Below are positions 5,071 to 30,953 of a stretch of 32,000 nucleotides of DNA, one piece after another. Position 1 is the first letter of the stretch. Each line of letters starts with the position of its first letter. A model generated the notes under the pieces. The model was not told where the DNA came from and did no database searches. It saw only the letters and a program-made list of their open reading frames with translations. The position numbers and the translations under genes are program-made. The stretch is from an uncultured archaeon (GTDB taxonomy: Archaea > Asgardarchaeota > Jordiarchaeia > Jordiarchaeales > Jordiarchaeaceae): contig CAZECW010000121.1 in the NCBI GenBank assembly GCA_964510585.1, forward strand, positions 30,001 through 62,000, read 5' to 3'.

Positions 5071-6164
5071 GTTAAGTCCGAGTTAAGTATATATCTACGT
5101 TTCTCATATTTATGTATTATGTTGCCGCAGAAGTTAACCTTATCTAGGAAAGAAGAGGCGGAAATCAGGAAATTCATGGCAGAAACCAAAAGCAAGGAGG
5201 AGTATAGAAGGGCGGAGGCAGTCCTTTACAAGGCGGAGGGACTCTCCTACAGAGCCATCGCAAAGAAGATGAACGCAGCATACCTCTCCGTCTACAAGTG
5301 GATCCAGAGATACAAGGAGGGAGGGGTGAAAGCCCTCCGCACCAAAACCCGCCCAGGAAAAAAGCCCAGAATAACCCCTGAACAGAGGAAAGCCATAGTT
5401 CAAACCGCCCTCCAAAGTCCCCAGGCCTTCGGCTACCTCAAAAACGAGTGGAGCGTAAGGCTCCTTGCAAAACACCTCACCCAGAAGATGGGAATCCCGA
5501 TAAGCAAGACCCACGTGTGGGAAATCCTCCACGAGCTAGGCATAGCCTACAAGAGAGCTAAAGCTGTGGTTGAGAGCCCCGACCCCGAATACCCGGAGAA
5601 AGCCCGCCGAGTGGAGGGCTACAAGAAAATTGCTCCCGCGCTCCTTAAAAAGGGGTTGCAGTAGCCTTTGAGGACGAGAAGTGGCTGGAACTCAACCCCA
5701 TAATAGGGTCTGGGTGGATGCCCCGAGGAGAGCAAAGGAGGGTTCCCACGCCAGGCGTTAATCGGAGGATAAACACCTTCATAACCTTGCTCTGGCCCTC
5801 CAAGAAGAAGCTCCACCATATCCGCAGGAGGAGGAGAAGCCGAGAATTCAAAGAGCACCTACAACAGCTGCTAAGGTACATAAAGAGGCACAGACTAAAG
5901 AGGATCATCCTCATCATGGACAATGCAACAATCCACCGTAGCCGGGAGACCATGCAGTTCCTTGAGAAACACGCGGAGAAAATAACCCCCTTCTATCTGC
6001 CGAAGTACGCCCCGCGGCTCAACGAGGTTGAAGGCCGGGTGAACAGACACCTCGCACGCGACGTGTGCACAAACCACAACTATCAAAGTATTGAAGACCT
6101 AGAGAAAGCAACAAGAAAATATATAAGAAAGCTCAATAGATATCACAAATAATCGGACTTAACT
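5070..6164 (+). mobile_element. IS630-family insertion sequence, apparently intact
   Basis: Perfect inverted repeat AATTTAAGTTAAGTCCGA (5064-5081) / TCGGACTTAACTTAAATT (6153-6170), which includes a TA target duplication (5068-69, 6165-66). HTH ORF followed by a DDE ORF in the -1 frame. Exact boundary (TA vs TTAA duplication) is inferred. Confidence 0.9.
5119..6152 (+). CDS. IS630 transposase split over two frames (orfA 5119-5664 HTH; -1 frame DDE domain), about 344 aa if fused
   Basis: orfA has tandem HTH domains (GLSYRAIA, VYKWIQRY, RPGKKP). The -1 frame gives VAVAFEDE...IMDNATIH...PKYAPRLNEVE, the IS630 DDE triad. Confidence 0.88.
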
Positions 6165-6231
6165 TAAATTATAAAGAACACCCTTCTTTGGGTCAGATTT
6201 GCTACATATGGTCCTGAAACATTTAATGCAC

Positions 6232-11812: not shown

Positions 11813-11949
11813 TGCTTTGTTGCACAATTTTACTTTTTCGAATGGATTTATTTAATATTCCTAATTTTTTCAGATTAATATTGTGAAATTGCAAAAAATT
11901 CATCAAAATATATAAATAAATAAAAAAAATAAAATTATGCAACACAGCA
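11813..11949. mobile_element. MITE copy 1 (137 bp), IS1595-type ends
   Basis: TIRs TGCTTTGTTGCACAATTTT / AAAATTATGCAACACAGCA; 8-bp flanking repeat GAGTGACG (11805-12) / GACTGACG (11950-57); interior homologous to 30796-30934. Confidence 0.9.
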
Positions 11950-15130: not shown

Positions 15131-15365
15131 AATAAACACCAATTCTAGCCCAACAAAACAACACAACATCCACAAATTAGAGTCTATAACTAAATCTCCT
15201 CCTAGCAAATTTTTTTGAACCACCTCCACCAAAAACGAGTTCACATCATTTATTGAATTCAGCAAGGCATTTTGTCCAATTCAAGAGTCCTCTACGCACA
15301 ACCACCCCGATTACTCTTATCCGAAAATGTAGTCCCGGTAACAGCACAATAAAAACATTTCGCTC

Positions 15366-15631
15366 AGAGGATCATCCTCATCATGGACAATGCAACCATC
15401 CACCGCAGCTGGGAAACCAGGCAGTCCCTTGAGAAACACGCGGAGAAAATAACCCCCCTCTTCTATCTGCCGAACTACGCCCCGCGGCTCAAAGAGGTTG
15501 AAGGCCATGTGAACAGAAACCTTGCACGCGACGTGTGCACAAACCACAACCATCAAGGTATTGAAGACCTAGAGAAAACAACAAGAAAATATATAAGGCT
15601 CAATAGACATCACAAATAATCGGACTCAACT
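15366..15631 (+). mobile_element. 5'-truncated degenerate copy of the IS630 element (3' DDE part and right end)
   Basis: Collinear with about 5899-6164 (AGAGGATCATCCTCATCATGGACAATGCAAC...AATCGGACTCAACT), with substitutions and two 3-bp indels. Confidence 0.92.
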
Positions 15632-15671
15632 TGAGAGCGAAATATTTAATACAAAACAATATAATAGAGAA

Positions 15672-15945
15672 GGTAACGCCCGGTATTGGACAAGAATGAT
15701 GGTGAAAACCAAGCCAGCCAATTAGCCTAAAAAGGGGCCTGAACGTAGGTTGGGATGCTAAAGAAGCTCAAAAACGCAACCTGCGTTGAGTAGTACTTCC
15801 GCCGTCGCCAGTTGGTTGCAGTACACAAAACGTCTGCAGGAGTGAAGAGGTTTATGCCCTAAAGGGCATGTGCCTAGTGGGCGGAAACCGGGGACCACCA
15901 AGGAATGTTCAAGAAGTTTCGGACAACGGCAGCCCTCAGTGGTGT
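15672..15945 (+). ncRNA. Candidate structured non-coding RNA or intron-like relic, family unassigned
   Basis: Mutually compatible nested helices in a non-coding gap, including a TGGT-GAAA-ACCA GNRA hairpin, an 11-bp stem and ATGCCC-TAAA-GGGCAT. Strand and transcription are not proven. Confidence 0.45.
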
Positions 15946-16131
15946 GAAGAATGGGAGTATACTAAGGGTGGTGGGGATTTGTGTTATTGCTGACTGCTGG
16001 CAGACAAAGGGGATTGTGTAGTTGTTCACAGAGGAAAAATGAGGAGGATGCGGCGAATACTTTGGTTAGATGTCCAGTTTGATGCGGAGTTTTGGGGAAG
16101 TTTATGAAATGTTTTGGAGGAGGCATAGTTT

Positions 16132-16614
16132 ATGGTTGATAAAGAAGAGGGATTGACTGGAGAAGATGTGAAGGTCCCCATCCGTGAATTAGTCATTAAT
16201 GATAGTAAACGGGTGAGGATAAGAGATATGGCGGACTATAGTGACATATTTTTTGCCATAGAGTTTACCATTTTAACCTATTGGGAGGATTGTTGTACCA
16301 CTTTAAAGGATAGAGATGTTATTAAATCTCTTTACAGTCTACTTGGAAATTTTGATGGCCAAGAAGAGGGAACACTAGCTTCAGAAATAGCAAAAGCCTT
16401 GAAGGCGACTCTAATATGGAGGAAGAGAATCAGAAGAAGAAAATATAAACTTGGAGAGATTCTTTCCTGCATTTCACTACTTATATCTGTGGCTAGAAAC
16501 CATCAAAGCCCAGACGGCATAGGATATCTAAAATGGATTAAAAACTTCTTTGAAGGAAAAATGCCCTTAACCATAGAGGAAATATTAGATTACATGTGGG
16601 AAAATGAAATGTAA
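16132..16614 (+). CDS. Hypothetical 160-aa protein
   Basis: ATG after GGAGG, helical protein-like composition, co-oriented with its neighbours. Confidence 0.75.
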   Translation: MVDKEEGLTGEDVKVPIRELVINDSKRVRIRDMADYSDIFFAIEFTILTYWEDCCTTLKDRDVIKSLYSLLGNFDGQEEGTLASEIAKALKATLIWRKRIRRRKYKLGEILSCISLLISVARNHQSPDGIGYLKWIKNFFEGKMPLTIEEILDYMWENEM

Positions 16615-16842
16615 ACCTGTCCTTCATAGATGCTATAATATTAGTGGTTGTACTCTAACTCATGTGGAATACATGTATCTGTTGGATTAATCATGATAAT
16701 GAGTATATGGAAGATAAAAACAAGTTAACTGCAATATTTATGGATGGTGTTTGGAAATATGTGTGGAGATTTAAAACTGGTTCCAAGAGTGGAGGTTCAG
16801 ATATGTATCCAACCTGGTTCTAAATGAGCAAGGGTGAGATAA

Positions 16843-27418: not shown

Positions 27419-27900
27419 TGCTGTGTTGCACAATTTTTATTTTTTCAATTTTTTTTATCTAATGATGAATTTTTTATAATCGCCCTTAAATAAGAATTTT
27501 GTGGCTGGCTGACCCTTTTTTAGGTTTGGTTCCAGGGCTTTGGAAGCATCCCAGTACACCGCCCACAAAAACCAAAAAATAACCATAGCCAGAACATCCT
27601 TCAGGGCCTCCAAAGGATTCCTTCGCCTCAAACTTCTACACACCCTAAATGCTACAATGTAGAACCTCAGGTTATCCTTACACACACCTTCCGTGGCAAG
27701 CAAACCACACCCGGATTATAAGAGCCTCGGCTCTCACACACATTCACGTGAGCCTCACCCCTGACATACTCGCCCGCCGAGTGGTTAACCCCCACATGCC
27801 GGTATCCTAACTCATCCAGGAAAGAGTAGGAGGTAAAGGCATCCGTGTAAACCGTGGAATCCTTAGAACGTGTATAAAAATGTTCAAAAAAAGGGGCGCT
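27419..27900 (-). mobile_element. IS1595-family transposase relic (frameshifted, 5'-truncated) with one terminal repeat
   Basis: Minus strand reads STVYTDAFTSY..LDELGYRHVGVNHSAGEYVRGEAHVNVCES, then shifts to GVCKDNLRFYIVAF (IS1595 DDE motifs). The end TGCTGTGTTGCACAATTTT (27419-37) matches the MITE TIRs. Confidence 0.85.
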
Positions 27901-30795: not shown

Positions 30796-30934
30796 TGCTG
30801 TGTTGTATAATTTTACTTTTTCTAATAAATTTATTTAATTTTCTTAAATTTTTTCAAATTAACAATGTGAAATTGCAAAAAATTCAAAATAATATATAAA
30901 TAAATTAAAAAAATAAGAATTATGCAACACAGCA
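30796..30934. mobile_element. MITE copy 2 (139 bp), IS1595-type ends
   Basis: TIRs TGCTGTGTTGTATAATTTT / AGAATTATGCAACACAGCA; perfect 8-bp target duplication CAACTCGA (30788-95 and 30935-42). Confidence 0.93.
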
Positions 30935-30953
30935 CAACTCGACCACTTATTTT

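What the first reader, a model, noticed from the sequence alone, without database searches (positions are those of the whole stretch)
15672..15945. Nested multi-helix non-coding element: candidate new structured RNA or group II intron-like relic
The compatible pairings are as follows. CCCGGT 15679-84 / ACCGGG 15887-92 closes a ~215-nt domain. Inside it lie TGGT-GAAA-ACCA 15700-11, AACGTAGGTTG 15742-52 / CAACCTGCGTT 15777-87 (one G-U), and TTCCGCC 15797-803 / GGCGGAA 15880-86. That last helix encloses TGCAG/CTGCA 15817-38 and ATGCCC-TAAA-GGGCAT 15854-69. A second domain follows: CACCA 15896-900 / TGGTG 15940-44 with TGTTC/GGACA inside. The CGCCCGG start, early GAAA hairpin and CCGGGGA closure recall group II intron domain I, but no domain V or RT is present. 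No listed feature explains this region.
Basis: partly seen in the sequence, partly recalled or inferred. Interest (0 to 1): 0.7.

Follow-up and report, generated by a model that had tools for sequence, protein, structure and literature searches.

The report
Decayed gene-less mini-transposon with TnpB guide-RNA scaffold
The "multi-helix RNA" is an old, partly decayed, gene-less miniature IS607-type transposon in an Asgard archaeon that kept the guide-RNA (omega-RNA) scaffold of its parent's TnpB nuclease gene; such elements are already known, and this is not a new RNA class or a group II intron relic.

Summary
A covariance model of the 3' end of intact 400-500-aa tnpB genes from Asgard archaea matches window 15776-15928 (94 bits, E 1e-24). 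That module is the omega-RNA (reRNA) scaffold plus transposon right end. It stops at an invariant AAGTTTCGGACAACG, after which flanks differ.

The window element is a composite:
- a left end (15337-15360 and 15639-~15670), split by an IS630 fragment;
- tnpB codons ~275-306;
- a ~200-nt deletion whose junction is shared with three copies at other sites and the G003 ortholog;
- tnpB codons ~377-423, which are the scaffold and right end.

It is therefore a MITE-like mini-IS607, a "standalone omega-RNA".

This copy looks dead. It keeps only 24 of 42 consensus pairs, and one hairpin arm is deleted. No cognate TnpB or TnpA was found in the 96%-complete genome. The orthologous copy in a sister species has diverged more (67% identity) than the neighbouring intergenic DNA (75%).

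Earlier notes of this scan describe a different, high-copy omega-RNA mini-element elsewhere in this genome.

The parts
15337..15360 (+). Start of the left end (LE) of the mini-IS607, cut off from the rest by a later insertion.
   Evidence: It is collinear with the uninterrupted LE of the orthologous copy in G003:C140 and resembles the LE upstream of tnpA in the full G005 element.
15364..15635 (+). 5'-truncated fragment of an IS630-family element (C-terminal part of a DDE_3 transposase plus its end), lying inside the LE. It is not part of the mini-IS607.
   Evidence: Pfam DDE_3, E 1.5e-7. It is 90-93% identical to window 5899-6165. It is absent from the G003:C140 ortholog.
15639..15670 (+). Remainder of the LE, including the most conserved LE block GAAATATTTAATAC. 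The TTTAATA at 15645-15651 is a candidate archaeal TATA box of the former tnpA promoter (inference).
   Evidence: It aligns with the LE of the full IS607-type element of G005 (L024 3345-3284) and with the LEs of the other mini copies.
15671..15766 (+). tnpB fragment 1: decayed codons ~275-306 (QHKAT..ESLNLAGLLK, the RuvC-II glutamate region).
   Evidence: The mini copies match the G005 tnpB gene at L024 1946-1859 with 74-78% identity (E 2e-15 for G002:C12). The multiple alignment shows the shared deletion junction after ..GCTAAAGAA.
15767..15928 (+). tnpB fragment 2 (codons ~377-423), which is the omega-RNA (reRNA) scaffold plus the right end (RE). It ends in the invariant AAGTTTCGGACAACG (15914-15928).
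   Evidence: The covariance model R1 matches 15776-15928 at 94 bits, E 1e-24. The motif is invariant in all copies, and flanks diverge immediately after it. In this copy 24 of 42 consensus pairs are formed.
15929..15948 (+). Position where the ~16-20-nt guide of the omega-RNA would lie. This is flanking host DNA, not part of the element (inference from the TnpB mechanism).
   Evidence: Sequence after the RE motif is unrelated between copies. The first 16 nt match only their own site in the genome, with no other place at 2 mismatches or fewer.

Best explanation
Window ~15337-15928 is an ancient, now inactive, non-autonomous miniature derivative of an IS607-type transposon (serine-recombinase tnpA plus tnpB). 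It is interrupted by an IS630 fragment at ~15364-15635. Two internal deletions removed tnpA and most of tnpB. What remains is the left end with the old promoter region, about 95 nt from the middle of tnpB, the last ~45 codons of tnpB and the right end.

In intact relatives that last part doubles as the ~160-nt omega-RNA scaffold. The RNA is transcribed across the 3' end of tnpB and ends with a ~16-20-nt guide copied from the DNA flanking the right end. It loads TnpB, which then cuts the empty donor site.

The mini-element was presumably moved in trans by a cognate TnpA, and while young it could supply a standalone guide RNA to a cognate TnpB. These steps are inferred. Some are surviving scaffold hairpins. 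Others are fortuitous pairings, including one between two joined coding fragments.

Shown here: homology, anatomy, shared deletion junction, covariation in the family, decay of this copy. Inferred: transcription, mobilisation in trans, past guide function.
For: 1. In the complete genome G005 the homologous DNA overlaps the 3' end of an intact 423-aa TnpB (Pfam HTH_OrfB_IS605, OrfB_IS605, Cas12f1-like_TNB). This protein matches the solved ISDra2 TnpB at E ~1e-62. A serine recombinase lies directly upstream (Resolvase, E 7e-20). The same tnpA-tnpB pairing is seen in other Asgard lineages.
2. Of the 47 model matches examined, 16 have a 399-500-aa TnpB frame running into the module.
3. The family structure is supported. 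79.8% of cells are paired against 32-45% when partners are slid. 34 of 42 pairs show compensatory changes, and 0 of 500 shuffles reach the observed values. This alignment was fitted to the model.
4. The window matches the model at 94 bits.
5. The left end and the tnpB-internal fragment were identified by similarity to the G005 element. The same ~200-nt deletion junction occurs in the window, G002:C12, G000:C61a and G003:C140. These are four sites, since G003:C140 is the window's ortholog.
6. Signs of decay in this copy: 24 of 42 consensus pairs formed, against 28-40 in the TnpB-linked copies with enough upstream sequence to judge. The 3' arm of the last hairpin is deleted and 4 nt are missing from the middle stem.
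7. The ortholog in G003:C140 is 67% identical in the scaffold, 75% in the adjacent intergenic DNA and 81% in the neighbouring gene, and its RE motif is mutated.
8. None of the 7 copies in G000 has a TnpB frame upstream. The closest TnpB in G000 is 31% identical over most of its length (42% over a 59-aa stretch), and the closest serine recombinases are 32-49% identical and mostly broken.
Against: The assembly has 217 contigs and is 96% complete. A cognate IS607 copy could therefore sit in unassembled repeats.

The closing helices of the middle stem (UCUGC/GCGGA) and of the 3' stem (CCGGG/UUCGG) still pair in this copy, the first through a change on both sides relative to the consensus CCUGC/GCAGG. 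The RE motif is intact. Weak residual constraint therefore cannot be excluded from one ortholog pair.

Mobilisation by TnpA and loading onto TnpB are inferred from other systems, not shown for this family.
Confidence: 0.88

Rival explanations
1. The element is a still-functional standalone omega-RNA gene. It would be transcribed from the left-end promoter and used in trans by a TnpB encoded elsewhere, to cut the site matching 15929-15948 or as a guide reservoir.
For: Standalone, mobilised omega-RNAs that work in trans are documented (PMC10691335, citing Altae-Tran 2021). The RE motif and two closing helices are intact here. A TATA-like box lies in the left end. Better preserved mini copies exist in sister genomes.
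Against: No cognate TnpB was found in the genome. Only 24 of 42 scaffold pairs are formed, and the last hairpin has lost its 3' arm. The left end is split by an IS630 fragment, which separates the start of the LE from the rest. The scaffold has diverged faster than neighbouring intergenic DNA from its ortholog. The guide has no second target in the genome.
Confidence: 0.07
2. The element is a new class of structured non-coding RNA, or a relic of group II intron domain I.
For: A nested fold with z = -2.08 on the plus strand only. No Rfam family explains it.
Against: The sequence is homologous to tnpB gene 3' ends and IS607 left ends. No group II intron model, domain V or reverse transcriptase is present. 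Half of the fold is built from juxtaposed coding fragments.
Confidence: 0.01
3. The element is a cis-regulatory leader or 5' UTR of the downstream 160-aa gene (16132-16614).
For: It has the same orientation as that gene and lies ~200 nt upstream of it. Both are present in G003 and both are absent from G004.
Against: Paralogous copies sit at unrelated loci with different downstream genes. The DNA between the element and the gene is better conserved than the element itself.
Confidence: 0.02

Closest known systems
reRNA / omega-RNA of TnpB (ISDra2 of Deinococcus radiodurans; Karvelis et al. 2021, PMC8612924)
   Same: The RNA is about 150-160 nt, is encoded by the 3' end of tnpB plus the right end, and is followed by a guide copied from flanking DNA. 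Here the scaffold overlaps the last ~45 codons of tnpB and stops at an invariant motif ~20 nt past the stop codon. The linked TnpB matches ISDra2 TnpB at E ~1e-62.
   Different: The parent element is IS607-type, with a serine recombinase rather than a Y1 transposase. The scaffold sequence matches no Rfam 15 family. The host is an Asgard archaeon. The window copy has no tnpB and is decayed.
Standalone, mobilised omega-RNAs of OMEGA systems (Altae-Tran et al. 2021, as summarised in PMC10691335), and PATE/MITE-like gene-less IS200/IS605 derivatives
   Same: These are gene-less units that keep the transposon ends and the guide-RNA scaffold and occur at several loci. Here the left end plus scaffold plus right end carry one shared deletion junction at four insertion sites in three genomes. 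A second, shorter mini family exists in G002.
   Different: This unit derives from an IS607-type rather than an IS200/IS605 Y1-type parent. It has few copies (7 scaffold matches in this genome) that are old (68-79% identical). No compatible effector was found in the same genome, so the trans function shown for the published cases is unlikely here.
IS607 TnpB systems guided by RAGATH-18-derived reRNAs (Cell Res 2024, PMC11061315)
   Same: An IS607-family tnpB with a conserved structured RNA at its 3' end (abstract seen).
   Different: No RAGATH-18 or other Rfam match, either in the window or in intact relatives. This is a different scaffold family.
Group II intron domain I
   Same: Only a superficial resemblance: a nested multi-helix fold with a GAAA loop.
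   Different: No match to Rfam group II models, no domain V, no reverse transcriptase. The homology lies elsewhere.

Membership tests
TnpB omega-RNA / reRNA scaffold | Encoded by the 3' end of a tnpB gene and the transposon right end | tested here: met
   Sixteen model matches have a 399-500-aa TnpB frame running into the module. In G005 the stop codon lies ~20 nt before the end of the motif. The window matches the same model at 94 bits.
TnpB omega-RNA / reRNA scaffold | Conserved secondary structure supported by covariation | tested here: met
   For the family: 34 of 42 pairs show compensatory changes, 79.8% of cells are paired against 32-45% when slid, and 0 of 500 shuffles reach the observed values. 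The alignment was fitted to the model. The window copy itself keeps only 24 of 42 pairs.
TnpB omega-RNA / reRNA scaffold | Scaffold ends at the element boundary and is followed by a variable guide | tested here: met
   AAGTTTCGGACAACG is invariant in the copies collected through that motif, and downstream sequences are unrelated between copies.
TnpB omega-RNA / reRNA scaffold | A compatible TnpB is present in the same genome | tested here: not met
   The best TnpB in G000 is 31% identical to the cognate type over most of its length (42% over 59 aa). None of the 7 scaffold copies has a TnpB frame upstream. The genome is 96% complete in 217 contigs.
TnpB omega-RNA / reRNA scaffold | The RNA is expressed, binds TnpB and guides TAM-dependent DNA cleavage | not testable with these tools
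IS607 family | Serine-recombinase TnpA encoded upstream of tnpB in the autonomous element | tested here: met
   In G005 a 191-aa ORF with a Resolvase domain (E 6.7e-20) overlaps the tnpB start. Homologues lie upstream of tnpB in Atabeyarchaeia, in G145 and, as a remnant, in a Thorarchaeota genome.
IS607 family | Insertion next to or between GG dinucleotides (recalled from Kersulyte et al. 2000, not read here) | tested here: inconclusive
   Mini copies in G002 begin at ..AG|GGTTGACAAC and end at ..CAACGG|. Most right ends read ACAACGG. There are too few clean empty sites to decide.
Non-autonomous mini-element (MITE/PATE-like, standalone omega-RNA) | Both transposon ends retained, with no protein gene | tested here: met
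   The LE matches the LE of the G005 element, the RE motif is present, and there is no ORF of 60 aa or more.
Non-autonomous mini-element (MITE/PATE-like, standalone omega-RNA) | The same deletion derivative at several unrelated loci | tested here: met
   An identical junction occurs in the window, G002:C12, G000:C61a and G003:C140 (four insertion sites, since G003:C140 is the window's ortholog), with unrelated flanks between sites.
Non-autonomous mini-element (MITE/PATE-like, standalone omega-RNA) | Evidence of recent mobility (near-identical copies) | tested here: not met
   Copies of the window's family are 68-79% identical. The insertion predates the split of G000 and G003. Only the second mini family, in G002, has near-identical copies.
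Group II intron | Domains I-VI with a conserved domain V; often an intron-encoded reverse transcriptase | tested here: not met
   No Rfam match at gathering score in the window, and none at E up to 10 in 15200-16400 apart from a chance lncRNA hit. No RT among the neighbouring ORFs.

The most novel reading that the evidence does not exclude
Asgard archaea may maintain families of gene-less mini-IS607 elements as dispersed reservoirs of TnpB guides. These elements arose at least twice independently in this genus by fusing the left-end promoter to the omega-RNA scaffold. Under this reading even old copies such as this one are still transcribed and loaded in trans, by a TnpB missing from the assembly or by a more distant one.
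Probability: 0.05. Interest if true: 0.5.

Novelty: new member of a known kind. Interest (0 to 1): 0.22.

Why it matters
For this locus the result is mainly a correction. An apparently novel structured RNA turns out to be transposon debris, and part of its fold is an accident of two joined coding fragments.

The work has three modest by-products:
- A covariance model of an omega-RNA scaffold with no Rfam match. It was found in 39 of 151 sampled genomes of the phylum, and about half of the examined matches were linked to intact TnpB genes.
- Evidence that IS607-type elements, not only IS200/IS605, give rise to gene-less derivatives that carry a guide RNA, at least twice in this genus.
- An example of such a derivative outliving its nuclease and decaying at or above the neutral rate. 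This argues against assuming that every orphan scaffold is functional.

Tried and rejected
- **Rfam.** Nothing was found at gathering score over the whole window, or at E up to 10 around the element. Intact relatives also gave nothing at the scaffold.
- **tblastn of the G005 TnpB against the window.** No significant hit. The coding remnants are visible only at the DNA level, through intermediate copies.
- **RNAalifold on a plain MAFFT alignment.** It gave a poor consensus (-8.4 kcal/mol) with long-range pairs that compete with the hairpins. I replaced it with a structure taken from the folds of TnpB-linked copies.
- **15-mer scan of genome contigs.** Most returned loci were chance matches in bacteria. 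About a dozen archaeal loci were real.
- **Small hydrophobic peptide on the minus strand (LAGLVF...).** I considered whether the conserved 5' part encodes one. This was dropped once the region proved to be the reverse complement of decayed tnpB codons.
- **First reading of the ~37-nt extra segment.** I initially took it for an insertion in the RuvC-III motif. The alignment shows it is the RuvC-II region brought next to RuvC-III by a deletion.
- **Second target for the would-be guide.** None with 2 mismatches or fewer in the genome.

Full report
**Observation**

The region 15672-15945 has no ORF of 60 aa or more. RNAfold reproduces nearly the whole nested fold on the plus strand (-92.3 kcal/mol).

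The signal is weak, however. The z-score is -2.08, with 8 of 200 dinucleotide shuffles folding as well. On the minus strand z is -0.79. Rfam 15 has no match at gathering score in the window. At E up to 10 in 15200-16400 there is only a chance lncRNA hit, so no group II intron model fits.

**What lies around it**

Directly upstream, ~15364-15635 is a 5'-truncated copy of an IS630-family element. It carries a DDE_3 domain (E 1.5e-7) and is 90-93% identical to 5899-6165. The genome is a 3.78-Mb, 217-contig assembly, 96% complete.

**Homologues identify the element**

DNA searches found partial copies elsewhere in the genome and in four of the five same-genus genomes searched. In one of them nine copies lie mostly at contig ends, which is how a repeat behaves in an assembly.

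In the complete genome G005 the homologous stretch overlaps the 3' end of an intact 423-aa ORF. This ORF has the three TnpB Pfam domains and matches the solved ISDra2 TnpB at E ~1e-62. Immediately upstream, overlapping the tnpB start, is a 191-aa serine recombinase with a Resolvase domain (E 7e-20). The parent is therefore an IS607-type element. The same tnpA-tnpB arrangement recurs in Atabeyarchaeia and other Asgard genomes.

All copies collected through the motif end in an invariant AAGTTTCGGACAACG, which lies at window 15914-15928. After it the sequences are unrelated. In G005 the tnpB stop codon lies about 20 nt before the end of this motif. This is the anatomy that defines the reRNA/omega-RNA of TnpB: a ~150-nt RNA matching the 3' end of tnpB and the right end, followed by a ~16-nt guide from flanking DNA (Karvelis 2021, PMC8612924).

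**The family is a structured RNA**

I took the common fold of the TnpB-linked copies: three hairpin domains followed by an ACAACG tail. I checked it on a 16-sequence alignment and built covariance model R1 from it.

R1 finds the module in 39 of 151 sampled genomes of the phylum, with up to 19 or more copies per genome. On 45 distinct matches:
- 79.8% of cells are paired, against 32-45% when partners are slid;
- 34 of 42 pairs show compensatory changes;
- no shuffle out of 500 reaches the observed values.

One caveat applies: this alignment is fitted to the model. Sixteen matches have a 399-500-aa TnpB frame running into the module. About twenty with enough upstream sequence have none. Even the intact scaffolds match no Rfam family.

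**Anatomy of the window copy**

R1 matches 15776-15928 at 94 bits, E 1e-24.

- **Left end.** Sensitive comparison with the G005 element shows that ~15639-15670, together with 15337-15360 on the other side of the IS630 fragment, is the transposon's left end. This is the DNA just upstream of tnpA, including the conserved block GAAATATTTAATAC.
- **tnpB fragment.** ~15671-15766 is a decayed piece of tnpB codons ~275-306, the RuvC-II region.
- **Shared deletion.** A ~200-nt deletion then joins this piece to codons ~377-423, which are the scaffold. The window, its ortholog G003:C140, G002:C12 and G000:C61a share the same junction, and the flanks are unrelated between these sites. They therefore descend from one deletion derivative that spread as a unit. 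It is a MITE-like mini-IS607 carrying a standalone omega-RNA.
- **Second family.** A second, shorter mini family has the left end fused almost directly to the scaffold. It is present as near-identical copies with different flanks in G002, so such derivatives arose at least twice in this genus.

Gene-less, mobilised omega-RNAs that act in trans have been described (PMC10691335, citing Altae-Tran 2021).

- **ATGCCC-TAAA-GGGCAT.** This is the apical hairpin of the scaffold's middle domain, and it is conserved.
- **TTCCGCC/GGCGGAA.** This extends a weaker UUCC/GGAA pairing possible in many copies, but it competes with the conserved closing helix of the middle domain (UCUGC/GCGGA here).
- **ACCGGG.** In the family the corresponding segment (consensus CCGAAC) belongs to the closing helix of the 3' domain and pairs with GUUUCGG. 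It does not pair with the upstream CCCGGT.
- **AACGTAGGTTG/CAACCTGCGTT.** These arms come from the RuvC-II and RuvC-III coding regions, which lie about 220 nt apart in the intact gene.
- **CACCA/TGGTG.** This helix crosses the element boundary into flanking DNA.

**Is this copy alive?**

The evidence says no.
- It forms 24 of 42 consensus pairs, against 28-40 in the TnpB-linked copies with enough upstream sequence to judge and 33-39 in the better mini copies.
- The first hairpin is disrupted, 4 nt are missing from the middle stem, and the 3' arm of the last hairpin is deleted.
- Its left end is split by the IS630 fragment.
- None of the 7 scaffold copies in this genome has a TnpB frame upstream.
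- The genome's TnpB-like genes are at most 31% identical to the cognate type over most of their length (42% over 59 aa). Its IS607-like recombinases are 32-49% identical, and most are broken.
- The same insertion is present at the orthologous site in G003:C140, without the IS630 fragment, so it predates that speciation. There the scaffold is 67% identical with 13 gap columns, and its RE motif is mutated. The adjacent intergenic DNA is 75% identical and the neighbouring gene 81%. This gives no sign of purifying selection.
- The would-be guide (15929-15948) matches only its own site.

**Limits**

The assembly is fragmented, so a cognate element could be hidden in unassembled repeats. One ortholog pair is a thin basis for a selection test. 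Transcription from the left-end TATA-like box, mobilisation by TnpA and loading onto TnpB are inferences from characterised relatives.

**Context from this scan**

Earlier notes, seen only after my reading was formed, describe a different 276-nt IS200/IS605-type mini-element with an omega-RNA scaffold. It is present in about 70-80 copies elsewhere in this genome. One note describes another orphan of this kind with no matching TnpB. I did not test those notes. They fit the picture of a genome rich in gene-less guide-RNA carriers.

**Verdict**

This is an ordinary, well-explained feature: a decayed member of a known kind of element, from a scaffold family with no Rfam match. It is not a new RNA class and not a group II intron relic.

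Noticed in passing
window 15337-15650: A 5'-truncated IS630 fragment (~15364-15635) sits inside the left end of the mini-IS607. It is flanked by similar octamers: AAAACATT just before the insert (at ~15352-15359) and GAAATATT (15639-15646). The G003:C140 ortholog has the uninterrupted sequence.
   Followed up: partly
window ~15215-16815: This whole 1.6-kb segment is replaced by about 46 bp at the orthologous site of G004:C176. The segment holds the mini element, the 160-aa ORF at 16132-16614 and the 53-aa ORF at 16662-16823. It is present in G003:C140. Whether this is an insertion or a deletion was not resolved.
   Followed up: partly
L210, L211, L212 (G002:C174, C369, C474): A second, shorter mini-IS607 family of about 215 bp. 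Its left end GGGTTGACAACAGCAGAAAGATTTAATAC is fused almost directly to the omega-RNA scaffold, and its right end is the variant TTTCGGGCAACGG. The copies are near-identical with different flanks, which suggests recent mobility.
   Followed up: partly
G000:C61 (L002 971-1700), G000:C130, G002:C12 (L153 1820-1943): Scaffold copies cluster. Two lie 460 bp apart on C61 and two lie 1.2 kb apart on C130. On G002:C12 a truncated scaffold abuts the left end of the next copy. This may reflect insertion of IS607-type elements next to existing ends.
   Followed up: no
window 15929-16131: The intergenic DNA upstream of the 160-aa ORF is better conserved with G003 (75%) than the scaffold (67%). It contains long identical blocks and may hold that gene's promoter or leader.
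   Followed up: no
L141 (MAG labelled Chloroflexia, CAVYMC010000006.1) and L049 (Hadarchaeota): The Asgard-type scaffold, with the exact 15-nt right-end motif, also occurs outside Asgard archaea. It is in a Hadarchaeota MAG (144 bits, no TnpB upstream) and, weakly (43 bits), in a MAG labelled Chloroflexia. This could be transfer or mis-binning.
   Followed up: no
window 11813-11949, 27419-27480, 30796-30935: An AT-rich ~140-bp repeat family with terminal inverted repeats was seen in the repeat scan.
   Followed up: no
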